A DNA stretch of 43,821 nucleotides, taken from the sequence record PQ850632.1; one strand, 5' to 3'. The DNA comes from Escherichia phage VerenaMeyer_Bas76. Of the stretch, positions 3,341-38,084 are shown in pieces; position 1 is the first letter of the stretch; each line of letters opens with the position of its first letter. A program made the translations under genes and the position numbers. The notes beneath the pieces are model-generated. The model was not told where the DNA came from. It searched no databases and was given only the letters and a program-made list of their open reading frames with translations.

Positions 3341-4417
3341 ATGCTATTAACTTTAGCGCCACAGGGTTTATCTATGAGCTTACTTACATCCCTAATCAGC
3401 CATCAGATATGGCTGCAACGCACCGCATCCGGTGAGGTGAAAGACCTCACGCCGTTCATTCAGGAGATAAGGGATGAAATCAAACGGCAGGTGCTGTTAT
3501 TCGGTGACGACGGTCGCAGCACTGCGCGACTGAATAAACTGTTACGCGACCTGGAAGAAGCACTAACCGGTATTACGGGTGACTGGCAAACAAAGCTAAC
3601 AGACGACCTTAAGGAACTGGCGGCGTACGAGGCTGAGTGGAACGTAAAGACACTGACCGCCAACGTAGACGCGGAATTTGTTACGCCTACCGCTGAGCAG
3701 GTATGGGCCGCTGCCGAGTTTCAACCATTATCATTGAGCGACAAGCCCGTTGATTTCACCAAGCTGATGTCTGGATGGGGCGAAACGGAAGTAGCACGTC
3801 TTGTAACTGGAGTTAAGATGGGCTTTGTGCAAGGTCAAACCACACGGCAGATTGTTAAGAATGTTGTTGGCGCTGGTGGACTAGCCGACATCTCAGAACG
3901 TAACGCGACTACGGTAATCCGCACCGCGCTGTCCCACGTATCCAACGAGGCCCGTAACGAGACGTACCGCCAGAACGACGACATCATCGAGAAGTACGAG
4001 TGGGTGTCAACGCTTGACAGCCGCACCAGTACGATTTGCAGGGTCAGAGACGGGATGACGTGGGAAATTGGTAAGGGGCCGATGCCCCCAGCCCATCCGA
4101 ACTGCCGGTCGTGCACGGCTCCGGTAATCAGTTCCGAGTTCGACTTCCTCGATAAAGGCGCAAAACGCGCGGCTAAAGGCGCGGAAGGTGGCACTCAGGT
4201 AAGCGCAGACACCACTTACTACGAGTTCCTTAAACAACAACCGGCGTGGTTTCAGGACCAGGCGCTCGGCCCGGTGCGAGGTAAGATTTTCCGTAACAGC
4301 GGTATATCGCCGGAAGAGTTTCGCGTAATATCTGTAGATGGTTTCGGGAATCCGCTCACGCTTAAGCAGATGGCGGAACTCGATAAACGTGTTGCTGATT
4401 ATCTGAAAGGGGAATAA
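3341..4417 (+). CDS. head morphogenesis protein (SPP1 gp7 / Mu F-like)
   Basis: 358 aa, directly after portal. Composition and position match the minor head protein family usually found after portal. ATG 3374 is an alternative start. Confidence 0.6.
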   Translation: MLLTLAPQGLSMSLLTSLISHQIWLQRTASGEVKDLTPFIQEIRDEIKRQVLLFGDDGRSTARLNKLLRDLEEALTGITGDWQTKLTDDLKELAAYEAEWNVKTLTANVDAEFVTPTAEQVWAAAEFQPLSLSDKPVDFTKLMSGWGETEVARLVTGVKMGFVQGQTTRQIVKNVVGAGGLADISERNATTVIRTALSHVSNEARNETYRQNDDIIEKYEWVSTLDSRTSTICRVRDGMTWEIGKGPMPPAHPNCRSCTAPVISSEFDFLDKGAKRAAKGAEGGTQVSADTTYYEFLKQQPAWFQDQALGPVRGKIFRNSGISPEEFRVISVDGFGNPLTLKQMAELDKRVADYLKGE

Positions 4418-4878
4418 TGATGGGCTTTTTCAAAGTAACTGACGTACCGTCTCGTCGCGTAGTCCAGTACGCCCGCGTGTCTGGCTCTGGCGAGAACGTG
4501 GTATTTATTGAGGACGAAAGTGTACTCGGTACACCGGTAGATGATATGCCGTTTGCAGATAAAACCGGTATTGCGTTGCCCGCCGCCGGTATGCTTTATG
4601 AAATTCCGTATCTGGCGGACGCTGGCGACGTGTATTTCTCTGTGCAACCAAAAGACGCTGAACTGGCCGACGGCAGCGCGACTATCACTGTCGAAGTTAA
4701 AGCAGGTGAAGCGCCGTATGCACTGACCTGGTACAAAGACGGTAAGGAAGTTGTCAACGCCCCGGAAGAGGCACTTTCCTTGACGGTTAACGCAGTGGGT
4801 GAATACTTCGTTAAAGTTACCGATGCTGATGGTGTAGAGGCTGTCAGTAAAGCTGCGAAGGTCACTAAGCCCGAATGA
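4417..4878 (+). CDS. Ig-like domain protein (possible capsid decoration protein)
   Basis: 153 aa, start overlaps the previous stop (TAATGATG). The C-terminal segment YALTWYKDGKEV...GEYFVKVTDADG is an Ig-like/BIG fold signature, paralogous to the C-terminus of ORF 7880..8221. Confidence 0.55.
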   Translation: MMGFFKVTDVPSRRVVQYARVSGSGENVVFIEDESVLGTPVDDMPFADKTGIALPAAGMLYEIPYLADAGDVYFSVQPKDAELADGSATITVEVKAGEAPYALTWYKDGKEVVNAPEEALSLTVNAVGEYFVKVTDADGVEAVSKAAKVTKPE

Positions 4879-4880
4879 TA

Positions 4881-4908
4881 AAAGGCCCCATTAAGGGGCC
4901 TTAGTTTT
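4881..4908. terminator. bidirectional intrinsic terminator (AAGGCCCC-ATTA-AGGGGCCTT)
   Basis: GC-rich hairpin with T-run on the plus side (AGTTTT) and A-run/T-run on the minus side. Sits between convergent genes 4417..4878(+) and 4908..5111(-). Member of a three-copy terminator family (see 12138 and 24196). Confidence 0.65.
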
Positions 4909-5111
4909 CAACGGAATCTTGTGTTTAAATCCTGCTCGTGGACGACCCTCAGAACAGTGTCATAATCCCCGTATCTTCCAGGTTCAAATATATCTAATGC
5001 CTTGTAAGCAGACATTGCGTCAGGGAAAACCTGCAGAACCTTTTTAACCCGGCACAAGTCACCGTCGAACTCTTCATCGAACTCTTGAACTACTTCGCAA
5101 ATTGCATACAT
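4908..5111 (-). CDS. hypothetical small acidic protein (67 aa), opposite-strand island gene
   Basis: ATG at 5111..5109 preceded by GGAGGTG on the minus strand. Driven by a TTGCAC-N17-TACTAT promoter copy and ends at the bidirectional terminator. No recognisable domain. Confidence 0.5.
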   Translation of the reverse strand: MYAICEVVQEFDEEFDGDLCRVKKVLQVFPDAMSAYKALDIFEPGRYGDYDTVLRVVHEQDLNTRFR

Positions 5112-5138
5112 TTTTCACCTCCTGTTTAAGTTAACTGA

Positions 5139-5167
5139 ATAGTACCCTATTATATTGGGGTGTGCAA
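5139..5167 (-). promoter_or_regulatory. sigma70-type promoter TTGCAC-N17-TACTAT (early promoter family copy 1)
   Basis: Minus-strand reading TTGCACACCCCAATATAATAGGGTACTATTCA. Near-identical copies at 13943..13971(-), 36609..36637(+) and 38025..38053(+). Confidence 0.55.
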
Positions 5168-5233
5168 ACTATTTATTTACGTATTCCAGTTATTCCACCG
5201 AATTGTAAATGTTGGAATAAACTATTCGAATAG

Positions 5234-5262
5234 TTGACTTTTCACTAAAAATATGATAAGCT
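5234..5262 (+). promoter_or_regulatory. candidate promoter TTGACT-N17-TGaTAAGCT overlapped by palindrome ACTATTCGAATAGT
   Basis: -35 TTGACT at 5234-5239; extended -10 (TG at 5254-5255, hexamer TAAGCT at 5257-5262). The 14-bp perfect palindrome at 5221-5234 abuts the -35. Confidence 0.3.
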
Positions 5263-5440
5263 CCACCTGAGCTTGTGAAGTATGAACAAGCGACCGCGGC
5301 GCGGGCAGGTAACGGAGCGGGACGTAAGTCCTGAGTGTAGTTACGCTGACGCGTTCGGAAGGGCCATACTCTATTGCTTGTGTAAAAAGTAACAGGTTTA
5401 CTGAGATTACGCCGTTTCTATGTTTAAATGATAAGGACTA

Positions 5441-5468
5441 GCGCCCCGCTTTATGGCGGGGCTTTACT
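5441..5468 (+). terminator. intrinsic terminator/attenuator upstream of the spanin genes
   Basis: Stem GCCCCGC/GCGGGGC (5443-5449 with 5456-5462) followed by TTTACTT, 19 nt upstream of the Rz-like start. Confidence 0.5.
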
Positions 5469-5486
5469 TATCGAGAAAGGGGAAAC

Positions 5487-5873
5487 ATGAATCTTAAAGC
5501 AACTGTCGTAGCAGGAGCATGTTTCATCATCCTGGTTTACGCACACGGCATCTACCAGTATCGCAGCGGATGGAACGAAGGCCGGGCTAATCTCGTTTCG
5601 CAGCAACAGCAGAAAGCACAGGCTGAGTTAGCGAAGAAAACACAACGGCAGCAGCAGGATGAATCGAAGGCCGCCGCCGCTGACAACGAAGGCAAGACGA
5701 AATCAGAGGTGATTACCCGTGAAGTCGTTAAGTACATTAAAACGCCTGGTCGCAGTGTGTGCGCTTTTGACCCTGAGCGCGTGCAGCTCAAGTCCCGCGC
5801 CGTCGCAAACGCCAACTCCATCCCCGGATACGACGATGATGCAGCCGCCGTGCAAACTGGCACCGCCAAGTAG
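5487..5873 (+). CDS. i-spanin (Rz-like inner-membrane spanin)
   Basis: 128 aa. N-terminal transmembrane anchor (ATVVAGACFIILVYA) followed by a charged, Q/A/K-rich periplasmic region. Contains an out-of-frame lipoprotein gene, the Rz/Rz1 hallmark. Confidence 0.7.
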   Translation: MNLKATVVAGACFIILVYAHGIYQYRSGWNEGRANLVSQQQQKAQAELAKKTQRQQQDESKAAAADNEGKTKSEVITREVVKYIKTPGRSVCAFDPERVQLKSRAVANANSIPGYDDDAAAVQTGTAK

Positions 5874-10554: not shown

Positions 10555-10967
10555 TGGGCTACTTTGAGGACTTAACAAAAGCGTTCGATGTTCCGCTGGT
10601 AGCCTTCGGAACCGCCAACGGCATCAAGGTTGCGCTTGAAAACATCGACGCGCCGACGTCAACCGATACGCCGTATCTGGCGAGTTACATGCTACTGGCA
10701 GATACCGAGCAGGCGGATTTGTTCTTCACTGAGCAACGCTCTGGTATTTATCAGGTAGACATTAACTACGCATCGGTGAAAGGTAGCGCGCCAATCAATA
10801 AAATGGCAGACTTACTTAACACGGCGTTTAAAGCAGGTAAGTCATTTTCGCGTAACGACATCTGCGCCGAGGTTCAATCGGTTAGCCTGGGGCCGCTGAT
10901 TGTAGAAAACGGATGGGCCAAACGACCATTGTCAATTAACTTTATTGCATTCACCAAGAGGCTGTGA
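10554..10967 (+). CDS. tail terminator / tail completion protein (putative)
   Basis: 137 aa, ATGA-coupled to the gp10-like gene and precedes the major tail gene. Confidence 0.4.
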   Translation: MGYFEDLTKAFDVPLVAFGTANGIKVALENIDAPTSTDTPYLASYMLLADTEQADLFFTEQRSGIYQVDINYASVKGSAPINKMADLLNTAFKAGKSFSRNDICAEVQSVSLGPLIVENGWAKRPLSINFIAFTKRL

Positions 10968-12136
10968 ATATGGCTACAACTCCTTTTAAGGGCGCGAATA
11001 CCGCGCAATTCTATGTGGCGGAAACTACCCCTGGCGTAACACCGACTAACCCGGTATGGTCGCCGTTGCGTAACACGGGCGGCGTTCCCGCTGTAACCCG
11101 CGATGCACTGACTTCCAACGAACTGGACGGCAGCCGTGAAACTACATCCATCCGAACCGGTAACAAGCAGGTTAGCGGGGAGTATGCCATCGAACTTAGC
11201 TCTCGTAGCCAGGATGATTTCCTTGCGGGAGCGATGACTTCTACGTGGCAAGCTGGGGTAGAGATTACTGGCGCCGAAATTACGGTCGCCCCAGCAGGTA
11301 AAACATTCACCCGCGCTGCCGGTAGCTTCATTACTGACGGTGTAGAAGTTGGCGACCTTATTGCGTTCACCGACTTAACCGGCGACAACGCAAAACCGTT
11401 TATCGTGACCGCGGTTTCCGCTCTGGTAGTTACGGGCGCAGGTATTCAGCACACGCTGACAGCAGAGACAGTAACCACTGACGCAAAAACTGGCGACAAG
11501 CTGGAAACCGGTAACGCGTGTAAGACGTTCTCCATCCTGACGTGGTTCAAGGGCCAGTGTGGTAACCCGGACGCGTACATGCTGACCAAAGGTGTGGAAA
11601 TCTCTGGCTTTACCGTAGAGCAGGCGGTTAACGCCATGGTCACCGGCAGCTTCCCGTTCATCGGCCTGAGTCAGGAGATTCTTACCGCGCCGCCGTCTGG
11701 CTCTGATTTCTCTCAGGTTACGTTCACCGATGAGCCGTTCTCGTCGGTAGATGTGTCGGTGTTCGATGGCTCCACGCCGTTGCGTTGCGATACTCTCACC
11801 ATCACCAACGACAACGGAGCTTCCGCGCAGTTCGAACTCGGTAACAGTAGCGTGGCGTTCGTCGAACGTGGACGCGCAGCTAACACATTCTCTATCTCTG
11901 GCAAGCTGTACGACATGGCGATGATTCAGAAGTTTATCAACGAGCAGCAGGTAGAGATTAACTCTATTCTGGCAGGGGTAAACGGGGCTATGTCTTTCAG
12001 TTTGAAACGTGCAGAGCTTACGGCGGTTACACCTGAGATTGGTGGGCCTGAGTCAATCACTCAGTCCATTGAAGGCCAGGCTACCGGCAATCAGTACCAG
12101 TCGTCTATCGTAATTCAACGTATCACCTACGCATAA
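10964..12136 (+). CDS. major tail (tube) protein (putative)
   Basis: 390 aa, last gene before the tail chaperone and tape measure set. Ser/Thr/Gly-rich. Confidence 0.5.
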   Translation: MNMATTPFKGANTAQFYVAETTPGVTPTNPVWSPLRNTGGVPAVTRDALTSNELDGSRETTSIRTGNKQVSGEYAIELSSRSQDDFLAGAMTSTWQAGVEITGAEITVAPAGKTFTRAAGSFITDGVEVGDLIAFTDLTGDNAKPFIVTAVSALVVTGAGIQHTLTAETVTTDAKTGDKLETGNACKTFSILTWFKGQCGNPDAYMLTKGVEISGFTVEQAVNAMVTGSFPFIGLSQEILTAPPSGSDFSQVTFTDEPFSSVDVSVFDGSTPLRCDTLTITNDNGASAQFELGNSSVAFVERGRAANTFSISGKLYDMAMIQKFINEQQVEINSILAGVNGAMSFSLKRAELTAVTPEIGGPESITQSIEGQATGNQYQSSIVIQRITYA

Positions 12137-12137
12137 A

Positions 12138-12166
12138 ACTAAGGCCCCTTTCGGGGCCTTTTTCTC
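12138..12166. terminator. bidirectional intrinsic terminator (AAGGCCCC-TTTC-GGGGCCTT)
   Basis: Hairpin with TTTTTC on the plus side, sitting between convergent genes 10964..12136(+) and 12165..12395(-). Same family as 4881 and 24196. Confidence 0.65.
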
Positions 12167-12395
12167 ACTCATCAATATTACTTCGATACTCCCGTAACTT
12201 CTCCAGACTTTCAATTGCTTCTGCTAAGTCGGTTCCGGTGTCCTTATGCCCGCGAAGACCCATGCACAATAACTTCTTCAATGCGTGCTGTAGTGCGGGG
12301 TCACGGATGTCGAAGGCACGGAGAACATCGTAAACGTCTACGGTCATAGTGCTGCCGTGAGTGTTTGTCATTGTTCGGTTGTATTTTGAAGTCAT
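12165..12395 (-). CDS. hypothetical protein (76 aa), last gene of the opposite-strand cassette
   Basis: Start overlaps the upstream stop (ATGA coupling with 12392..13522). No recognisable domain. Confidence 0.45.
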   Translation of the reverse strand: MTSKYNRTMTNTHGSTMTVDVYDVLRAFDIRDPALQHALKKLLCMGLRGHKDTGTDLAEAIESLEKLREYRSNIDE

Positions 12396-13522
12396 CCCAG
12401 CATCTCCGGTGAAATAGTTAAACGTGCGACCTCGCCATATTCGGCGCTATAAGTAATTACATTTGCACTACGGCCTGACATCCACCCGCCGCGGGAGGCA
12501 TAGGCGTCTTTAGCCGCTAAGGTGCGGTGTTGCTCAACAATCATGTTACGGCTTTCTACAATCTTCTGGTGGTGCAGGTGGCCTACGTGGGCGTAGCTAT
12601 AGACACTCTCACCGAACGCTTTGCGGAATTTGGCAATCATAACCGGTTCGATAGCATCGAATCGCGCCTTATGCCCGTGGTGAAAGAACAACGTCGTTTT
12701 TCCGTGTTGCACCATCTTGTAAACATCCGGCGACGTATCGACAATCACTCGGCTGTCGTTCGAATATAAAACTGTGAACATTTCAGCCAGCCATACAGAG
12801 CCTACAGGGTCATGGTTCCCCTGTACGATAAGCAAGCGAACATTTTTATGTTTAACCAGTGCCATATCTACAACACGGCGTACCATACGAATCATGTAGC
12901 GGACGAGTTTCTGGTAGCGAGTGTCTGCGTCCAACACGTGACGCGACTCGGGTGTAACGGCATCCAGACTATCGAAGTGCGCGAAATCACCCAGCAGGTT
13001 AATAACTCCTGTTCCTGCATCCGGTGCTTTCTGAAACGCCGCGTCGAACCAACGAGAGAACAGGTCTTCCGCAATCTTTATATCCCAGTCGTCGCCGCTC
13101 TCGTCGGCCCAGGCAAGCATACCGAGATGGAAATCAGATACCGTGTAAAGATTGAGTAGCTTGTCGTCGCGTTTGGCTCGAGTCGCTTTAGCCGGCGCAA
13201 CTGGCGTAATCTCTGACTTCATGCCTTCAATCACGGCTTTCATCAACTCGACCTGACGTTCAGCGTCGGTGTCTGTCTTAACCCATTGCAACTTAGTATT
13301 GCCGAACTCGTCTACCAGAGACGACGTCCCTTTAATCTTGTAGCCGTCTGGGACAAGGTGGCTAACGTCACGCCCGTGGCCTACACCTTTCTTAGCCAGC
13401 TTCGCTTTACGGATACGAATAACTCGGTCTGAGATGCCGTATTTACGGGCGATGTCTACATTCTTCATCCCGGCGTTCAATTCTTCCTGTAACTGTTCGT
13501 CGGTTATTTTCTTCTGGGCCAT
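12392..13522 (-). CDS. HTH-domain protein fused to calcineurin-like metallophosphoesterase
   Basis: 376 aa. N-terminal HTH (VDIARKYGISDRVIRIRKAKL). Ordered metallophosphatase motifs: SDFHLG, GDFAHFD, GNHD, HHGH, GHLHH. Confidence 0.7.
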   Translation of the reverse strand: MAQKKITDEQLQEELNAGMKNVDIARKYGISDRVIRIRKAKLAKKGVGHGRDVSHLVPDGYKIKGTSSLVDEFGNTKLQWVKTDTDAERQVELMKAVIEGMKSEITPVAPAKATRAKRDDKLLNLYTVSDFHLGMLAWADESGDDWDIKIAEDLFSRWFDAAFQKAPDAGTGVINLLGDFAHFDSLDAVTPESRHVLDADTRYQKLVRYMIRMVRRVVDMALVKHKNVRLLIVQGNHDPVGSVWLAEMFTVLYSNDSRVIVDTSPDVYKMVQHGKTTLFFHHGHKARFDAIEPVMIAKFRKAFGESVYSYAHVGHLHHQKIVESRNMIVEQHRTLAAKDAYASRGGWMSGRSANVITYSAEYGEVARLTISPEMLG

Positions 13523-13587
13523 GCTTACTTCCTCGTGTTTAGGATTTGTCCTATTTAACCACAGTGGATTCCTTTAAATAAAGGCAA

Positions 13588-13914
13588 CTATTTACTTTCT
13601 GCGCCTATCGCCCACCCTGTCATTACCATTTGCAGACGGGTGGCTGTCAGTAGGCTATAGAAAGCATCTCCGTTTTTCTCTACCGAACGTATCACTGTGT
13701 AGGTTACGGCCTGCGGGGGTAGGCCCGATTTACCGACATCTACGGCGGCCTCGCATTCACGGACTGTGGAGTCCTTAAATGCCTTTACAATAGTAGGGTC
13801 GGCTTTATCAAGCACACCAGAAGTCATAAGAACAGATTCACTAAATACCTGTTCGCACGGGGCTCCAAAAGTAGCAAAAGACATAAAACCCAGAGCTAGT
13901 ACTAATTTACGCAT
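13588..13914 (-). CDS. secreted/periplasmic small protein with signal peptide (108 aa)
   Basis: N-terminus MRKLVLALGFMSFATFGA is a classic signal peptide. ATG preceded by GAGGAA. First gene downstream of promoter copy 2. Confidence 0.55.
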   Translation of the reverse strand: MRKLVLALGFMSFATFGAPCEQVFSESVLMTSGVLDKADPTIVKAFKDSTVRECEAAVDVGKSGLPPQAVTYTVIRSVEKNGDAFYSLLTATRLQMVMTGWAIGAESK

Positions 13915-13942
13915 AATTATTTCCTCAGTAAGTTACATGTGA

Positions 13943-13971
13943 ATAGTACCCTATTATATTGGGGTGTGCAA
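13943..13971 (-). promoter_or_regulatory. sigma70-type promoter TTGCAC-N17-TACTAT (early promoter family copy 2)
   Basis: Minus-strand reading TTGCACACCCCAATATAATAGGGTACTATTCA, identical over about 30 nt to the copy at 5139..5167. Confidence 0.55.
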
Positions 13972-14078
13972 GTAGTGTGCTAGAATAAGTTTGCGCCTAG
14001 TGTCGCACACGAAAAGCGGGTGGTTCCCGCCTGGCGCATTAACCATAACCAGTAACCTCTTAACCAAAGGACTAAAGA

Positions 14079-14495
14079 ATGAAACTTTCTGATTTCTATT
14101 TTGCCGACCGCCACGCCGCCGGTACTAAAATGCCTATCCTTCTGCCCAGTGGTAAAGATTCCGGTGAATGGTTGCAGGTCATCGGCCCCGATTGTGACGC
14201 TGGTGTTCGTGCGGGCCGTGCCTACACAACGGCAATTCGACGCCTTACGGAAGAACTTGCGCCATTAGATAAAGAGTGCGAGGCGCTGAATAACTGGGCG
14301 CGCTATAATGATGAGAAGGGCTGGCGGGTGATGGACCTGAACAAGCAGCTTGCCGTGGAAATCGTCACCGGTTGGTCATTCGACGAACCATTCAGCAAAG
14401 AGGCGCTTGCTAACCTGTTCGACCAGTACAGTGGGTTGGCAGAGGCCGTAGTTAAGCATCACACCGATAGCCGCGAGAAACTCTCGGAAAAGTAA
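14079..14495 (+). CDS. tail assembly chaperone (G-like)
   Basis: 138 aa, immediately upstream of the tape measure gene. The -1 frame stays open from about 14480 to 14857, allowing a G-T style fusion. Confidence 0.6.
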   Translation: MKLSDFYFADRHAAGTKMPILLPSGKDSGEWLQVIGPDCDAGVRAGRAYTTAIRRLTEELAPLDKECEALNNWARYNDEKGWRVMDLNKQLAVEIVTGWSFDEPFSKEALANLFDQYSGLAEAVVKHHTDSREKLSEK

Positions 14496-14857
14496 AAGCG
14501 CTGTATGAATTTGCGCAATGGTGCTTTGTCGACCGCCACAAACGTAAGCAATTCGACGACATCGCGGCGGGCCACCAGGCGGCTTTGATTGCAATGGGCG
14601 TGATTAAAGAACCGCAGATGAAAGAAGCGACGGGGCCGGAATGCCCCGTTTCTCTTATCGACGTGTTCGAGAAATACCGTGCCATTAAATTCCTACAGCG
14701 CGAAACAGATGATACTATCGTTATAATCCCGCGCGATGCGCTCAAATGGCAAGATTTGGTAGCGTTTCGTGATGTCGCCGGTTACGGCATAAGTTTGTTC
14801 GAAGCCGAGGTTATCATGGGCTTAGACGGAATATTTGAGGGCAGAGAAGATGGCTGA
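14486..14857 (+). other. putative -1 programmed frameshift extension (T part of a G-T fusion)
   Basis: Sequence GGAAAAGTAA at the end of the G-like ORF. The -1 frame has no stop from about 14480 to 14857 and ends overlapping the tape measure start. The heptamer is not the canonical X_XXY_YYZ, so the shift site is uncertain. Confidence 0.4.
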
Positions 14858-17162
14858 TACGGCTTCCCTAATTGCCAGAGTAAAAACAGAAGGCGCTGAT
14901 GTAGCCGCTAAACAGCTTGACGCTATGGCGGCATCCGCAGACCGTGCGGACACATCCGTAAACAAACTAACGCCGGATGTTAATAAAGTAAACTCCGCTA
15001 CGTCTAAAGCGGCTTCTGACGGTTTCGCTAAATTCCGTAACGCCGCCGGGCAGGTAGGCTTCCAGGTGCAGGACATGGTCGTCCAGTTGCAGTCCGGCAC
15101 GTCTGCATTCGTAGCAATCGGGCAACAAGGCTCTCAGCTTGCGGGTGCTTTCGGCCCTGGTGGTGCGGTGCTTGGGGCTGTAATTGCTCTTGCGTCAGCT
15201 ATCGGTGGCGTCTTGTACAAATCGCTAACAGAGGCGGAGGGGAGTTCAAAAGACCTCGAAGCCGCGCAGAAACAGTTAAAAGACACCTTCCAGCAAACAG
15301 CATCCGGCTCTCTCGAACTGACAGACGGCCTTATCCAGCTTACCCAAATCAGCCGAGAAGCGGCGGAGACTCAGCTCGCTCTGGCTAAGGCTAACGCAGA
15401 CCTTATCGCGCAGCAAACAGCTAAAGCCGTTCGAGAGGACGCAGAATCATGGGAGACATGGAAAGCCTCCACAGCATCGGCTATTAGCCAGTATGATGCG
15501 CTGGTTTCTAAGGGTGCTGATGTAGGCGACACGTTAGAAAAACTCGGTGGCACTTACGAGGGTAATATCGTAGGCGTCAACATGCTGGCACAGAATATAG
15601 CAGAGCTTAGTAGTAAGTTCGGGGTTAACCGTGACCAGGCGCTGGAGATGATAGCGGCACAGAGCGCGTTTAATAAAGAGCCGACCGCTGAGAATGCCCG
15701 CCGCATCGCCGATGTGTTTACCGACTGGCTTGGTAACACTAAGCAGTTGAACCCGGAACTTATCCGCCTGACAGACAACGCCAACAAAAACGCCACGGCG
15801 CTGGAAAACGCAGAGAAGTCGGCAAACGCGGCGGCGGAGGCTCAAAAGAACCTCGGTCGTAACGTTAACTCAACCACGCAGAGATTCCAGGAACAGAACG
15901 AAGCTATCGTCAAGAATCAGCAAATCGCCATCTTAAGCGACCGTGAGCGTATCAGGGCACAAGCTGAACTGGATAAGCAGGCGTTCGCTAAACGTGAAGC
16001 TGTCACCAAAGAACAGATAGCCGCGTATAACGCTGCCCGTGACGCGGAAGCGCAGCAAGACATAGCTCGCATTGACAAGACCGAGAAAGAGAAGGCAGAC
16101 CGCGAGGCTAAATCGAACGAGAAACGTCTGGCGGCGCAGGCCAAACGCGAAGAAACGGCGGCGCAACGTCAGAAAAAAGCGGCGGAAGATTTCCTCGCTA
16201 CTGTCGACCGAACAACCGGAGACGAAATTTCTCGCATCACGGCGGCAGAAGAGCAGAAACTGGCGAAACTTGAAGAGTTTAACCGCGCCGGAACAATAAG
16301 CCAGCAGCAGTACGAAAACGCCAAAACGCAGATTATGCTCACCGCCGAGCAGGCCCGACAGGAAGAACTGGATAAGAAAAGAAAAGAAGCCCAGGAAAAG
16401 CAGCAGAAAGGCGACGACTTCATGGCACAGATTATGGGCCAGAACGCTACTGAGCTTGAGCTTCTCGACATCCAGGAACAGCAGAAGCTGGCGGTCGCGG
16501 ATAAGTATCGAGAGCAGGGGCTTATTAACGAGGAACAGTATCAGGCGGCACTTAACGCTATAAATGAGCAGTATGCTACGAAGCGCGCCGACGCTTTAGG
16601 TAATTCTTTCGGTGACATGGCGGCTAATGCTAAAACAGCATTTGGCGAGGCGTCCACCGCGTATAAAGCGTTTGCTATCGCACAGGCAACTATCGCCACG
16701 TACACATCGGCTATCGAGGCATATAAGTCAACGGCTGCCATCCCTGTTGTCGGCCCATTCCTGGCGCCGGTTGCTGCGGCTACTGCCGTTGCCGCGGGGC
16801 TGGCTAATATCGCCAAAATCCGCTCGGCGCGTGAGCAGGGCGGGCAGTTATCCGCCGGGCAGGCTTCTACTATCGCAGAACGCGGTAAACCAGAAGTTAT
16901 TATGCCTGCTGGTGCATCGCGAGTACGCACTGCACAGCAGATGAAAGAAATTATGGGGCAAAACGGGTCTTCTTCCGGCCCATCTAATGTTACCATCGTA
17001 AACAACACGAGTTCTCAAATCGGCAACGTATCCACTGAGCAAGATGATGAAGGCCGTTTGCGTATCATCATAGAAGAGCAAGTTGCTGCATCTTTGCAGA
17101 ACAGCAACAGCAAGATTAGCAAGGCCCGCAAAGCCACAAGAAATGCGCCGGGGTTTAAATAA
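14850..17162 (+). CDS. tail tape measure protein
   Basis: About 770 aa. Long Ala/Gln/Glu/Lys-rich coiled-coil, hydrophobic Gly/Ala-rich segments near the C-terminal third, located after the chaperones. ATG 14850 preferred over TTG 14835. Confidence 0.85.
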   Translation: MADTASLIARVKTEGADVAAKQLDAMAASADRADTSVNKLTPDVNKVNSATSKAASDGFAKFRNAAGQVGFQVQDMVVQLQSGTSAFVAIGQQGSQLAGAFGPGGAVLGAVIALASAIGGVLYKSLTEAEGSSKDLEAAQKQLKDTFQQTASGSLELTDGLIQLTQISREAAETQLALAKANADLIAQQTAKAVREDAESWETWKASTASAISQYDALVSKGADVGDTLEKLGGTYEGNIVGVNMLAQNIAELSSKFGVNRDQALEMIAAQSAFNKEPTAENARRIADVFTDWLGNTKQLNPELIRLTDNANKNATALENAEKSANAAAEAQKNLGRNVNSTTQRFQEQNEAIVKNQQIAILSDRERIRAQAELDKQAFAKREAVTKEQIAAYNAARDAEAQQDIARIDKTEKEKADREAKSNEKRLAAQAKREETAAQRQKKAAEDFLATVDRTTGDEISRITAAEEQKLAKLEEFNRAGTISQQQYENAKTQIMLTAEQARQEELDKKRKEAQEKQQKGDDFMAQIMGQNATELELLDIQEQQKLAVADKYREQGLINEEQYQAALNAINEQYATKRADALGNSFGDMAANAKTAFGEASTAYKAFAIAQATIATYTSAIEAYKSTAAIPVVGPFLAPVAAATAVAAGLANIAKIRSAREQGGQLSAGQASTIAERGKPEVIMPAGASRVRTAQQMKEIMGQNGSSSGPSNVTIVNNTSSQIGNVSTEQDDEGRLRIIIEEQVAASLQNSNSKISKARKATRNAPGFK

Positions 17163-24194: not shown

Positions 24195-24195
24195 A

Positions 24196-24224
24196 ACTAA
24201 GGCCCCAAACGGGGCCTTTTCTCT
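24196..24224. terminator. bidirectional intrinsic terminator (AAGGCCCC-AAAC-GGGGCCTT)
   Basis: Hairpin with TTTTCTC at the junction of the convergent late (plus) and replication (minus) operons. Third copy of the terminator family. Confidence 0.65.
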
Positions 24225-24360
24225 ACTCTTCTGATAACTTCTCCAGTACAAACGCCAGTTGTGCATTAGCGGCATCCCTCTGTTGCCGTAGTCGTAGAAC
24301 CTCTTCTTCGAGTTCCTTGATACGTTTTTGCAATGCTGGAATCGGGGCTATGATGTTCAT
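24223..24360 (-). CDS. hypothetical 45-aa coiled-coil peptide (below ORF-track cutoff)
   Basis: ATG 24360..24358 overlaps the upstream stop (ATGA). Translation MNIIAPIPALQKRIKELEEEVLRLRQQRDAANAQLAFVLEKLSEE. Ends at the terminator. Confidence 0.3.
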   Translation of the reverse strand: MNIIAPIPALQKRIKELEEEVLRLRQQRDAANAQLAFVLEKLSEE

Positions 24361-26941: not shown

Positions 26942-27257
26942 TTCTAAATTCCTTATATTGTTGGGGTATGTGCTTACTATAATAGTCTGCTATTAGGGTG
27001 TCAATCTGTTTTATCGAACCAACGACAAAAACATTTGCGCCACGTTTACGTATACGCTCGTGTTCCCGTAGCTGGTGCGGGTCTGGCTTAGTGTTTTCGT
27101 CTTTCTTCACCTCGACGAACCAGACGATGCCGCCGGGTAGAATTGCCAGCAGGTCAGGAGCGCCTGAACGTCCTTCGTAGGAAAGTTTACGAACGAGGCC
27201 ACCAATGGCCTCGAATCGCTCTTTTGCGTATTTCTGGATGCGGCCCTCTTTAGTCAT
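26925..27257 (-). CDS. VRR-NUC domain nuclease
   Basis: 110 aa. PD-(D/E)XK-type motifs GAPDLLAI...VWFVEVKK...QLREHE, characteristic of VRR-NUC. Confidence 0.7.
   Translation of the reverse strand: MTKEGRIQKYAKERFEAIGGLVRKLSYEGRSGAPDLLAILPGGIVWFVEVKKDENTKPDPHQLREHERIRKRGANVFVVGSIKQIDTLIADYYSKHIPQQYKEFRNETRI
26975..27003 (-). promoter_or_regulatory. sigma70-type promoter TTGACA-N17-TATAGT (internal, inside the 3' end of the VRR-NUC gene)
   Basis: Minus-strand reading TTGACACCCTAATAGCAGACTATTATAGT. Same family as 30678 and 32978. Confidence 0.45.
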
Positions 27258-29945: not shown

Positions 29946-29973
29946 TTAGTAAAAAGGCCCAATGAAGGGCCTT
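29946..29973 (-). terminator. intrinsic terminator/attenuator between the SSB-like and polymerase genes
   Basis: Minus-strand hairpin AAGGCCC-TTCATT-GGGCCTT followed by TTTTTA. Confidence 0.45.
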
Positions 29974-29992
29974 AGTTAAATTGATTCAGATA

Positions 29993-30619: not shown

Positions 30620-30677
30620 TTGATTTCTCGCTTTTCAGTTTCAGTTTACTCCGGGATCTGCCCGGCCAGTGATTAGA

Positions 30678-30706
30678 ACTATAATAGCTAACTATTCATG
30701 TGTCAA
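30678..30706 (-). promoter_or_regulatory. sigma70-type promoter TTGACA-N17-TATAGT
   Basis: Minus-strand reading TTGACACATGAATAGTTAGCTATTATAGT, nearly identical to the promoter at 32978..33006. Confidence 0.55.
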
Positions 30707-32946: not shown

Positions 32947-32977
32947 TTGTTTCTCTCCTCTCGTTTGGTATGGGCTA

Positions 32978-33006
32978 ACTATAATAGCGAACTATTCACA
33001 TGTCAA
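32978..33006 (-). promoter_or_regulatory. sigma70-type promoter TTGACA-N17-TATAGT
   Basis: Minus-strand reading TTGACATGTGAATAGTTCGCTATTATAGT. Divergent from the plus-strand promoter of the XRE gene. Confidence 0.6.
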
Positions 33007-33030
33007 TGGGCTTTTCTAAAATAATTAATA

Positions 33031-33039
33031 TGGTACTAT
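33031..33039 (+). promoter_or_regulatory. candidate extended -10 promoter (TGgTACTAT) for the XRE-type HTH gene
   Basis: TG at 33031-33032 and hexamer TACTAT at 33034-33039 followed by the ACTATTCA box; no good -35. Confidence 0.35.
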
Positions 33040-33070
33040 TCACATATCAACTGACTAAGGAGTAATTGAC

Positions 33071-36608: not shown

Positions 36609-36637
36609 TTGCACACCCCAATATAATAGGATACTAT
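36609..36637 (+). promoter_or_regulatory. sigma70-type promoter TTGCAC-N17-TACTAT (early promoter family copy 3)
   Basis: TTGCACACCCCAATATAATAGGATACTATTCA followed by the leader CGAAACGAGACAGAGGAG. Confidence 0.55.
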
Positions 36638-36662
36638 TCACTTATCGAAACGAGACAGAGGA

Positions 36663-38024: not shown

Positions 38025-38053
38025 TTGCACACTAAGATAGAATAGGCTACTAT
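38025..38053 (+). promoter_or_regulatory. sigma70-type promoter TTGCAC-N17-TACTAT (early promoter family copy 4)
   Basis: TTGCACACTAAGATAGAATAGGCTACTATTCA followed by the leader ACACAAACGAGAGGAGAGACGGAAG. Confidence 0.55.
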
Positions 38054-38084
38054 TCATTTACACAAACGAGAGGAGAGACGGAAG

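What the first reader, a model, noticed from the sequence alone, without database searches (positions are those of the whole stretch)
13588..13914. Early-expressed secreted protein: superinfection-exclusion or receptor-masking candidate
The first gene after promoter copy 2 encodes a 108-aa protein with a canonical cleavable signal peptide (MRKLVLALGFMSFATFGA) and no lipobox. It is predicted to be periplasmic and is expressed from a host-type promoter independently of virion genes. Periplasmic or outer-membrane early proteins in virulent phages commonly block secondary infection or alter envelope receptors.
Basis: inference. Interest (0 to 1): 0.5.

Follow-up and report, generated by a model that had tools for sequence, protein, structure and literature searches.

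The report
Secreted phage protein replacing Imm gene
A small secreted protein of unknown fold in an E. coli tailed phage sits, under the same promoter, exactly where most sister phages carry a T4-type "immunity to superinfection" gene, so it is probably a new kind of periplasmic blocker of secondary infection, though nobody has tested this.

Summary
The ORF is real: 13588-13914 on the minus strand, 108 aa, with a ribosome-binding site. It is under strong purifying selection (dN/dS 0.02-0.06) and matches PHROG 14165 (unknown function). The window is a Kagunavirus (Guernseyvirinae), 99.5% identical to BASEL phages Bas70/Bas75 over the region compared (12100-14600).

The N-terminus is a typical Sec signal peptide without a lipobox. 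Cleavage is more likely after G17 (or A14) than after A18, because P19 would then be at +1. The mature 91-aa acidic protein has two invariant cysteines and a confident all-helical model. It has no Pfam, NCBIfam, PDB or fold match.

The gene is always the first or second gene of an antisense island next to the tail-assembly-chaperone gene. Among 74 related loci, this slot holds this family in 20, a T4 Imm-family gene (PF14373) in 30, a probable distant secreted relative in 7, and a small membrane protein or lipoprotein in 5. The two main cargoes never co-occur. Bas74 drives Imm from the identical promoter.

The cargo co-segregates with two alternative tape-measure N-terminal types (25/25 and 30/31). 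T4 Imm was recently reported to bind its tape measure.

Superinfection exclusion is therefore supported by context only. Receptor masking is unlikely. "Early" expression is unverified.

The parts
13588..13914 (-). CDS of the 108-aa secreted protein ('SP108'; PHROG 14165); stop codon 13588-13590
   Evidence: ORF list; PHROG 14165 E=1.4e-55; annotated CDS in Bas75; dN/dS 0.02-0.06
13864..13914 (-). Signal peptide, residues 1-17 (MRKLVLALGFMSFATFG). Predicted SPase I cleavage is G17|A18; the alternative is A14|T15
   Evidence: n/h/c-region heuristics across the family; alignment with the Jerseyvirus SFA|HPCE site; signal-peptide region has pLDDT<50 in the model
13591..13863 (-). Mature periplasmic domain, residues 18-108 (91 aa, 9.7 kDa, pI about 5). 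All-helical, with invariant C20 and C54 (probable disulfide) and a conserved C-terminal GW.IGAE motif
   Evidence: Physicochemical values; invariant columns; AF2 model pLDDT 84.5, helices 19-25, 28-31, 40-63, 68-76, 84-106
13922..13926 (-). Shine-Dalgarno GAGGA, 7 nt upstream of the ATG
   Evidence: Read from the sequence
13940..13971 (-). Promoter-like 32-nt repeat TTGCAC(13971-13966)-N17-TACTAT(13948-13943). It is one of four copies in the genome, and an identical copy lies upstream of the Imm gene of Bas74
   Evidence: Repeat families D4, I1-I3; motif scan and cross-phage comparison. Not experimentally mapped, and not listed by the consensus scan
12392..13522 (-). Second gene of the antisense operon: a 376-aa protein with an N-terminal HTH and a calcineurin-like phosphoesterase domain ('DNA repair exonuclease', PHROG 704)
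   Evidence: Pfam and PHROG scans; no terminator between it and SP108
12165..12395 (-). Third gene of the antisense operon, 76 aa, unknown function
   Evidence: ORF list; PHROG 2452; annotated in Bas75
12141..12160 (-). Intrinsic terminator (AAGGCCCCGAAAGGGGCCTT followed by a T-run) that closes the antisense operon. It is bidirectional with the end of the tail-tube gene
   Evidence: Terminator scan; repeat family D3/I4
14079..14495 (+). Tail assembly chaperone gene, divergently adjacent. It is the invariant neighbour of the slot in every context examined
   Evidence: PF08748 and PHROG 15027; contexts
14850..16139 (+). N-terminal ~430 residues of the tape measure protein ('type A', with a Gly/Ala-rich hydrophobic segment at residues ~90-127). 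This is the part that co-segregates with the SP108 family and is replaced in Imm-carrying sister phages
   Evidence: tblastn mosaic analysis and contingency table; hydropathy

Best explanation
SP108 is a Sec-exported, signal-peptidase-I-processed soluble periplasmic protein of about 9.7 kDa. It is all-helical and probably carries a C20-C54 disulfide.

It is the first gene of a three-gene antisense operon: promoter 13971-13943, then SP108, the HTH-phosphoesterase gene, a 76-aa ORF, and the terminator at 12160-12141. The operon is embedded between the tail-tube and tail-assembly-chaperone genes of a virulent Kagunavirus.

Its most likely job is superinfection exclusion at the genome-delivery step. 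Once made in an infected cell, it would sit in the periplasm and stop later-arriving virions of the same tail type from completing DNA transfer, without affecting adsorption.

The most likely target is the tape measure protein of the incoming phage (the 'type A' N-terminal architecture), or a periplasmic host factor that this protein needs. That would make SP108 the soluble, periplasmic counterpart of the inner-membrane T4-Imm-family protein that occupies the same slot in sister phages with the 'type B' tape measure.

Shown: gene reality, signal-peptide features, conservation, slot replacement, shared promoter, co-segregation with tape-measure type.

Inferred: export, disulfide, exclusion function, target.
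For: (1) Export features are kept across a family that diverges to about 25% identity, and both cysteines are invariant.

(2) Position is invariant. It is the first gene next to the chaperone gene in 25 of 26 HMM-positive sources. In the five extra metagenomic contexts it is first or, once (L093), second. Meanwhile the rest of the island varies.

(3) Slot census of 74 IMG/VR loci with enough upstream sequence:
- 20 carry the SP108 family.
- 30 carry the Imm_superinfect family.
- 7 carry a 120-aa secreted two-Cys protein that is a possible remote homologue (hhalign 85%).
- 5 carry a small TM protein or lipoprotein.
- 12 carry none or something else.
So 62/74 carry an envelope-targeted cargo.

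(4) SP108 and Imm never co-occur within +/-4 kb. At whole-genome level the window has SP108 only and Bas74 has Imm only.

(5) The slot protein of SE2 and Bas74 passes the PF14373 gathering score (48-57 bits against 27.9). It also hits the imm genes of T-even phages.

(6) The promoter upstream of Imm in Bas74 is identical to that upstream of SP108 here. Jerseyviruses with either cargo also share one promoter.

(7) The exchanged block is slot gene + chaperone + tape-measure N-terminus. Window against Bas74: flanking phosphoesterase 95%, p76 100%, chaperone 51%, tape-measure residues 1-430 no match, C-terminal part 83%.

(8) Across 88 sources, SP108 goes with type A in 25/25 and Imm with type B in 30/31.

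(9) T4 Imm was reported to bind the T4 tape measure directly, and HK97 gp15 is cited there as analogous (bioRxiv 10.64898/2026.03.06.709160).

(10) Virulent phages are known to use a periplasmic exclusion protein: T4 Spackle, 97 aa, with a signal peptide.
Against: - No experiment exists on any family member.
- Co-segregation with the tape measure can be explained by physical adjacency alone, and many of the loci are close relatives (non-independent).
- There are exceptions. L023 has Imm with a type A tape measure. L080 has a divergent secreted protein with type B. In L003 the SP homologue is only 38% identical although the chaperone (97%) and tape-measure N-terminus (89%) are nearly the same.
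- 12/74 loci have no envelope cargo in the slot, so the slot is not obligatorily an exclusion locus.
- There is no similarity of sequence or fold to any known exclusion protein.
- Very low dN/dS is not what a fast arms-race gene typically shows.
- The single RNA-seq data set places the slot gene of a related phage in the last-peaking class, whereas exclusion proteins of T4 are early.
Confidence: 0.4

Rival explanations
1. SP108 is a periplasmic accessory protein with another envelope function unrelated to exclusion. Examples are control of lysis timing (antiholin-like, as T4 RI), protection against lysis from without, or inhibition of a host periplasmic enzyme or chaperone.
For: It is a small helical exported protein like T4 RI (own knowledge). 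The slot gene of a related phage peaks late in RNA-seq and was discussed with lysis genes. Strong purifying selection fits a conserved partner. There is no homology to any exclusion protein.
Against: It is not linked to the lysis genes. Holins and endolysin lie at about 40.3-41.3 kb and the spanin at 5487-5873. The holins here have no large periplasmic domain for an RI-like partner (sequence). The positional alternative in sister phages is an Imm-family protein, not a lysis gene.
Confidence: 0.2
2. Receptor masking or alteration. SP108 would modify or block the receptor so that phages no longer adsorb.
For: T5 Llp and Cor-type proteins do this in other siphophages (one search lists the T5 structure paper; otherwise own knowledge). 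The protein is envelope-located.
Against: Kagunaviruses depend on O-antigen, recognised by an enzymatic tailspike, and no protein receptor is known. A soluble periplasmic 9.7-kDa protein without a lipid anchor or enzyme fold cannot reach or remodel surface O-antigen directly. There is no lipobox and no glycosyltransferase or acetylase similarity.
Confidence: 0.07
3. Counter-defence. SP108 would neutralise a host- or prophage-encoded envelope-located exclusion or defence component, helping the phage's own infection rather than blocking others.
For: It is an accessory gene in a variable slot of a virulent phage. Some BASEL Kagunaviruses are inhibited by K-12 cryptic prophages through envelope changes.
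Against: A protein made only after DNA entry cannot help its own genome past entry-level barriers. According to the BASEL paper, sensitivity to cryptic prophages does not simply follow phylogeny. There is no match in Pfam or NCBIfam to anti-defence families. PADLOC was not run.
Confidence: 0.08
4. The N-terminus is not cleaved. It would act as a signal anchor or SAR-type segment, making SP108 an inner-membrane-tethered protein facing the periplasm. Less likely, the protein stays cytoplasmic.
For: The h-region is rich in Gly/Ser/Ala/Thr (LALGFMSFATFGA). The best -3/-1 site has Gly at -1, with Pro at +2. A sub-branch of the family carries a lipobox-like AVLGC, which suggests that membrane tethering is tolerated.
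Against: Allowed SPase I sites exist in all members. The Jerseyvirus homologues have a clean SFA|H site. The h-region is only 13-15 residues, short for a stable anchor.
Confidence: 0.1

Closest known systems
T4 Imm family (Pfam PF14373, PHROG 1039) as found in sister Guernseyvirinae (SE2 AEX56192.1, Bas74_0023)
   Same: It occupies exactly the same genomic slot, behind the same promoter, divergent from the tail-assembly-chaperone gene. It is mutually exclusive with SP108. It is a small envelope-targeted protein and is linked to a particular tape-measure type.
   Different: There is no sequence relationship. Imm is a 59-83-aa polytopic inner-membrane protein, whereas SP108 is a 91-aa soluble periplasmic helical protein with a cleavable signal peptide.
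T4 Spackle (Sp, gp61.3; PDB 6X6O, 7CN6)
   Same: Both come from a virulent phage. Both are about 100-aa precursors with a Sec signal peptide and a small mature periplasmic protein containing two cysteines. Spackle is a known superinfection-exclusion factor.
HK97 gp15 (moron-encoded exclusion protein acting through the tape measure)
   Same: It is a siphophage exclusion factor whose action is tied to the tape measure protein and genome injection (as cited). This is the mechanistic model proposed here.
   Different: gp15 is an inner-membrane protein of a temperate phage (own knowledge). No sequence comparison was made here.
P1 Sim
   Same: It is a signal-peptide-bearing periplasmic exclusion protein that acts after adsorption (own knowledge).
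   Different: It is prophage-encoded and much larger. It was not compared here (no sequence at hand).
T5 Llp / Cor-type lipoproteins
   Same: They are small phage-encoded envelope proteins that prevent re-infection (one search lists the T5 structural paper).
   Different: They are lipoproteins that plug an outer-membrane protein receptor. SP108 has no lipobox, and the phage uses O-antigen.

Membership tests
PHROG 14165 (phage protein family of unknown function) | Full-length match to the family HMM | tested here: met
   E=1.4e-55, residues 1-108 on profile positions 1-109
Sec/SPase I secreted proteins | Positively charged n-region, hydrophobic h-region of 10-15 residues, small residues at -3/-1, no Pro at +1 | tested here: met
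n-region +2; h-region L4-A18; allowed sites TFG|AP (after 17) and SFA|TF (after 14). Heuristic only, no SignalP
Sec/SPase I secreted proteins | Demonstrated export and cleavage | not testable with these tools
   Needs PhoA/BlaM fusions or N-terminal sequencing
Bacterial lipoproteins (Llp/Cor-type exclusion lipoproteins) | Lipobox [LVI][ASTVI][GAS]C or PROSITE PS51257 pattern ending in the +1 Cys | tested here: not met
   No pattern match. C20 is preceded by P19
T4 Imm / Imm_superinfect (PF14373) | Match to PF14373 / PHROG 1039 | tested here: not met
   No Pfam hit at E<=10 for 19 members. Imm queries find nothing in the window
T4 Imm / Imm_superinfect (PF14373) | Small polytopic inner-membrane protein | tested here: not met
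   The only hydrophobic segment is the N-terminal signal peptide. Mature part has GRAVY 0.06
T4 Spackle | Sequence or profile similarity to Spackle | tested here: not met
   hhalign probability 1.1%. Family profile finds no PDB chain at E<=10
T4 Spackle | Shared fold | tested here: not met
T4 Spackle | Target: a tail-associated lysozyme in the excluded phage | tested here: inconclusive
   No lysozyme or peptidase domain in the tape measure, distal tail, J-like or tailspike proteins by Pfam. A divergent muralytic domain cannot be excluded
DUF3718 (label given to the S4lw homologue in GenBank) | Match to the Pfam model | tested here: not met
   No Pfam hit for the window protein, 18 homologues or 10 distant members at E<=10. 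No NCBIfam hit for the S4lw protein
Superinfection-exclusion proteins (functional class) | Expression in trans lowers infection by the same or related phages | not testable with these tools
   Only positional and comparative evidence is available

The most novel reading that the evidence does not exclude
SP108 would found a new class of soluble periplasmic exclusion proteins that trap or disable the incoming tape measure protein before it reaches the inner membrane. In Guernseyvirinae the exclusion gene, the chaperone and the tape-measure N-terminus would then form an exchangeable 'lock-and-key' cassette with at least two non-homologous solutions: membrane Imm with tape measure type B, and periplasmic SP108 with type A. 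This would extend the newly reported Imm-tape-measure and gp15-tape-measure principle to a third, soluble mechanism. It would also define exclusion groups among otherwise near-identical phages.
Probability: 0.2. Interest if true: 0.65.

Novelty: new variant of a known kind. Interest (0 to 1): 0.45.

Why it matters
If SP108 is an exclusion factor, it is a new, structurally unprecedented family. It sits in model phages that are now publicly available (BASEL Bas70-73/75), and natural isogenic-like comparators carry Imm instead (Bas74).

That pair of phage sets makes several questions directly testable:
- How does a siphophage genome cross the periplasm?
- Do exclusion proteins generally act on tape measure proteins?
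- Does mosaic exchange of tape-measure modules let phages escape each other's exclusion?

It also matters for phage cocktails. Kagunaviruses and Jerseyviruses with different slot cargo may or may not exclude one another.

If SP108 is not an exclusion factor, it is still a conserved exported phage protein of unknown fold that deserves a function.

Tried and rejected
- Pfam, NCBIfam and PDB sequence searches of the protein, its family profile and distant members gave nothing.
- The GenBank label 'DUF3718' on the S4lw homologue could not be reproduced.
- A weak BFVD hit to phiEB49 gp19 (E=0.5) was checked. It lies in an unrelated Drexlerviridae context and was dropped.
- P0029, a 744-aa repeat protein hit by the profile, is a low-complexity artefact.
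- Spackle-like inhibition of a tail lysozyme found no support, because no muralytic domain was detected in the tail proteins.
- An RI-like antiholin role was considered. It was rated low because the gene is not linked to the lysis genes and no holin periplasmic domain is present.
- Rfam found nothing in the window.
- The consensus promoter scan did not list the conserved TTGCAC-N17-TACTAT element. It listed instead a minus-strand hit overlapping the SD/ATG (13943-13916) that cannot serve this gene, and a plus-strand hit (13932-13960) pointing at the chaperone gene.
- Per-gene expression values for the K1B4 RNA-seq were not in the held supplements.
- A linker-fused SP108/tape-measure structure prediction was considered. 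It was not run because the tool returns no interface metrics and accepts only window or database sequences.

Full report
**What the window is.** The region 12100-14600 is 99.5% identical to Escherichia phages Bas75 and Bas70 of the BASEL collection, and it matches 451 phage records, mostly Kagunavirus and Jerseyvirus (Guernseyvirinae). Structural genes run on the plus strand from 1 to about 24.2 kb. Replication genes run on the minus strand from about 24.5 to 36.3 kb, and small genes plus lysis genes follow on the plus strand. According to the BASEL paper, kagunaviruses depend fully on O-antigen, which an enzymatic tailspike recognises; no protein receptor is described.

**The observation.**
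- The ORF lies at 13588-13914 on the minus strand and encodes 108 aa beginning MRKLVLALGFMSFATFGAPCEQ.
- A GAGGA Shine-Dalgarno sits 7 nt upstream of the ATG.
- The gene is annotated as a hypothetical protein in Bas75 and matches PHROG 14165, a family of unknown function, over its full length (E=1.4e-55).
- Pairwise dN/dS against orthologues is 0.02-0.06 at dS up to 0.55, and 0.07-0.22 for more distant pairs. It is therefore a functional protein-coding gene, not a chance ORF.
- The N-terminus has a +2 n-region, a 15-residue uncharged h-region and small residues at -3/-1. The same architecture is kept in every homologue although the residues differ.
- No lipobox is present.
- One correction is needed. 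Cleavage after A18 would put Pro19 at +1, which signal peptidase I does not accept (established knowledge). The allowed sites are G17|A18 and A14|T15, and G17|A18 aligns with the clean SFA|HPCE site of the Jerseyvirus homologues.
- The predicted mature protein has 91 aa, 9.7 kDa and pI about 5.

**The family.**
- A word-indexed search of 5.8 billion proteins found 22 clusters.
- A profile search that read all 1.84 billion cluster representatives found only 10 at E<=0.001, one of them a repeat-protein artefact.
- A second profile search found 39 clusters down to about 25% identity.
- All true members are 108-123 aa, carry a signal peptide, and have two invariant cysteines (C20, C54) plus a conserved C-terminal G-W-x-x-G motif.
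- One sub-branch has a lipobox-like AVLGC.
- AlphaFold2 on the 19-sequence alignment gave a confident all-helical model: mean pLDDT 84.5 and pTM 0.75, with only the signal peptide disordered.
- No Pfam, NCBIfam or PDB sequence match exists.
- The fold therefore has no recognised relative in the libraries I could search. AFDB50 was unavailable.

**Transcription unit.**
- A 32-nt repeat, TTGCACACCCCAATATAATAGGGTACTATTCA, lies at 13971-13940 on the minus strand, 25 nt upstream of the ATG.
- Three further copies each precede an SD+ATG by 25-35 nt: 5167-5136 on the minus strand, and 36609-36640 and 38025-38056 on the plus strand.
- Read as TTGCAC-N17-TACTAT it is a sigma-70-like promoter, but it matches the consensus only 7/12 and the consensus scan did not list it.
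- The hexamer positions and spacing recur in the Jerseyvirus and Serratia-phage versions (TTGCAT/TTGCGC-N17-TATTAT; TTGCAC-N17-CATTAT).
- No terminator separates SP108 from the 376-aa HTH + calcineurin-like phosphoesterase gene (12392-13522) or the 76-aa gene (12165-12395). A strong bidirectional terminator follows at 12160-12141.
- So SP108 heads a three-gene antisense operon inserted between the tail-tube gene (10964-12136) and the tail-assembly-chaperone gene (14079-14495).
- Timing is not established. In the one Kagunavirus time-course RNA-seq (phage vB_Eco_K1B4), the gene in this slot, there a 'superinfection immunity protein' next to the chaperone gene, was placed among the genes that peak last, together with the DNA polymerase and methylases (PMC12645636). 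That study's time classes are coarse. It gives no support to 'early'.

**The decisive context.**
- In Salmonella phage SE2 and in the Kagunavirus Bas74, the gene at exactly this position is a 59-68-aa two-helix membrane protein. It passes the gathering threshold of Pfam PF14373 'Superinfection immunity protein' (E=1.9e-15 and 9.3e-13) and belongs to PHROG 1039.
- By tblastn this protein also hits the imm genes of T-even phages at about 50% identity.
- A published annotation study notes that T4 Imm is in that PHROG (PMC9409062).
- I then fetched 80 IMG/VR loci through their chaperone gene and classified the divergent neighbour with HMMs. Six loci lacked upstream sequence. The remaining 74 fell as follows.

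| Slot cargo | Loci (of 74) |
|---|---|
| SP108 family | 20 |
| Imm family (PF14373) | 30 |
| 120-aa secreted two-Cys protein, possible remote SP108 relative (hhalign 85.5%, both Cys aligned, partly driven by the signal peptide) | 7 |
| Other small membrane-anchored protein or lipoprotein | 5 |
| No island or non-envelope ORF | 12 |

- SP108 and Imm never occur together in these loci. At whole-genome level the window has SP108 only and Bas74 has Imm only.
- The promoter in front of Imm in Bas74 is identical to the one in front of SP108 here. SE2 (Imm) and S4lw (SP108 homologue) likewise share the Jerseyvirus version.
- Five further metagenomic contexts of distant homologues (24-41% identity) again place the gene first, or once second, next to the chaperone gene, while the remainder of the island differs.
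- In INPHARED the chaperone occurs in 492 records and SP108 in 98.

**Link to the tape measure.**

| Protein (window vs Bas74) | Identity |
|---|---|
| Tail tube | 90% |
| p76 | 100% |
| Phosphoesterase | 95% |
| Protein after the tape measure | 96% |
| Chaperone | 51% |
| Tape measure, residues 1-~430 | no detectable match |
| Tape measure, C-terminal 326 residues | 83% |

- These values show that the exchanged block is slot gene + chaperone + tape-measure N-terminus.
- Across all 88 sources, SP108 goes with the window-type N-terminus ('A') in 25 of 25 scorable cases. Imm goes with the Bas74/SE2 type ('B') in 30 of 31.
- Type A has a Gly/Ala-rich hydrophobic segment at residues ~90-127 that Bas74's type B lacks.
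- A 2026 preprint reports that T4 Imm binds the T4 tape measure protein directly and blocks genome translocation. It cites HK97 gp15 as a likely parallel (10.64898/2026.03.06.709160).
- Taken together, a reasonable model is that each slot cargo is matched to the tape-measure type next to it, with SP108 as the periplasmic solution for type A.
- Several caveats apply:
  - The genes are adjacent, so linkage alone predicts co-segregation.
  - Many loci are close relatives.
  - L023 combines Imm with type A.
  - L080 combines a divergent secreted protein with type B.
  - L003 has an SP homologue only 38% identical beside a 97% chaperone and an 89% tape-measure N-terminus.

**Comparison with known systems.**
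- Functionally the nearest analogue is T4 Spackle. It is a 97-aa precursor with a signal peptide and a small two-Cys periplasmic protein that acts in exclusion.
- There is no profile similarity to Spackle (hhalign probability 1%), and Spackle does not appear among the listed structural hits.
- Spackle's target, a tail lysozyme, has no detectable counterpart in this phage's tail proteins.
- SP108 is not a member of the Imm family, not a lipoprotein of the Llp/Cor type, and not DUF3718.
- It therefore 'may work like' a periplasmic exclusion protein, but it belongs to no known exclusion family.

**Verdict.**
- The sequence-level observation is confirmed, with a one-residue correction of the cleavage site.
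Export is very likely (my estimate about 0.85). Superinfection exclusion is the best single hypothesis (about 0.4-0.45) on positional and comparative evidence. A tape-measure-directed mechanism is a testable extension (about 0.2).
- Receptor masking is unlikely, and early timing is unproven.
- This is a new, non-homologous variant of a known kind of function, of moderate interest. The interest is raised by natural Imm-type and SP108-type sister phages in a public collection, which make the test straightforward.

Noticed in passing
window 5136-5167 (-), 13940-13971 (-), 36609-36640 (+), 38025-38056 (+); also 26975-27004, 30677-30706, 32977-33006, 33026-33050, 36619-36648: A 32-nt element, TTGCAC-N17-TACTAT, occurs four times, each 25-35 nt upstream of an SD+ATG. 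Its AATAG..CTATT core is shared, in the opposite orientation, with canonical TTGACA-N17-TATAGT promoters of the minus-strand replication genes. The near-perfect conservation of the spacer suggests a bound regulator or overlapping bidirectional promoters.
   Followed up: partly
window 13990-14045 (+), leader of the tail-assembly-chaperone gene: A structured element, GCGCC..GCGGGTGGTTCCCGC..GGCGC, is conserved between Kagunavirus and Jerseyvirus. It is single-copy in the window and has no Rfam match. The 30-37-aa minus-strand ORF annotated over it in Bas74/Bas75 (13954-14067) may be spurious, and the element may control late tail-gene expression.
   Followed up: partly
window 14079-16139 (+) vs L006 (Bas74) 3501-5570: The chaperone and the first ~430 residues of the tape measure form a mosaic block exchanged between otherwise 90-100% identical kagunaviruses. 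Type A carries a Gly/Ala-rich hydrophobic segment (residues ~90-127) that is absent from Bas74's type B.
   Followed up: yes
window 4908-5111 (-): A second antisense gene (67 aa, acidic, no family match) is embedded in the head module. It sits behind an identical copy of the promoter element and in front of a bidirectional terminator (4881-4906).
   Followed up: partly
window 12392-13522 (-): The operon partner of SP108 is a 376-aa protein that combines an N-terminal LuxR/GerE-like HTH with a calcineurin-like phosphoesterase domain (labelled 'DNA repair exonuclease'). It is absent from several islands that keep the SP gene (L004, L007, L089, L091).
   Followed up: partly
P0028; L039 3094-3474, L046 1985-2350, L048 3225-3590: A sub-branch of the SP108 family has a lipobox-like AVLGC at residues 13-17 ahead of the conserved Cys. 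These members may be lipoproteins rather than soluble periplasmic proteins.
   Followed up: no
L054 1283-1552; L026 959-1165; L034 3677-3925; L055 3638-3835: In other relatives the same slot holds unrelated small envelope proteins: an 89-aa lipoprotein (LAGC lipobox), 66-82-aa N-terminally anchored proteins, and a 65-aa two-TM protein. The slot looks like a general hotspot for envelope-targeted accessory genes.
   Followed up: partly
window 12137-12163, 4881-4906, 24195-24225, 29951-29977: Four near-identical bidirectional terminator hairpins (AAGGCCCC-loop-GGGGCCTT) mark the module boundaries of the genome.
   Followed up: no
L004 10912-11178: A Tad2-like (anti-Thoeris, PF11195) gene sits among the head-tail connector genes of a distant relative.
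   Followed up: no
L002 (Salmonella phage S4lw) 2998-3327: The GenBank product name 'DUF3718 domain-containing protein' for the SP108 homologue could not be reproduced with Pfam or NCBIfam. It is probably an over-annotation.
   Followed up: yes
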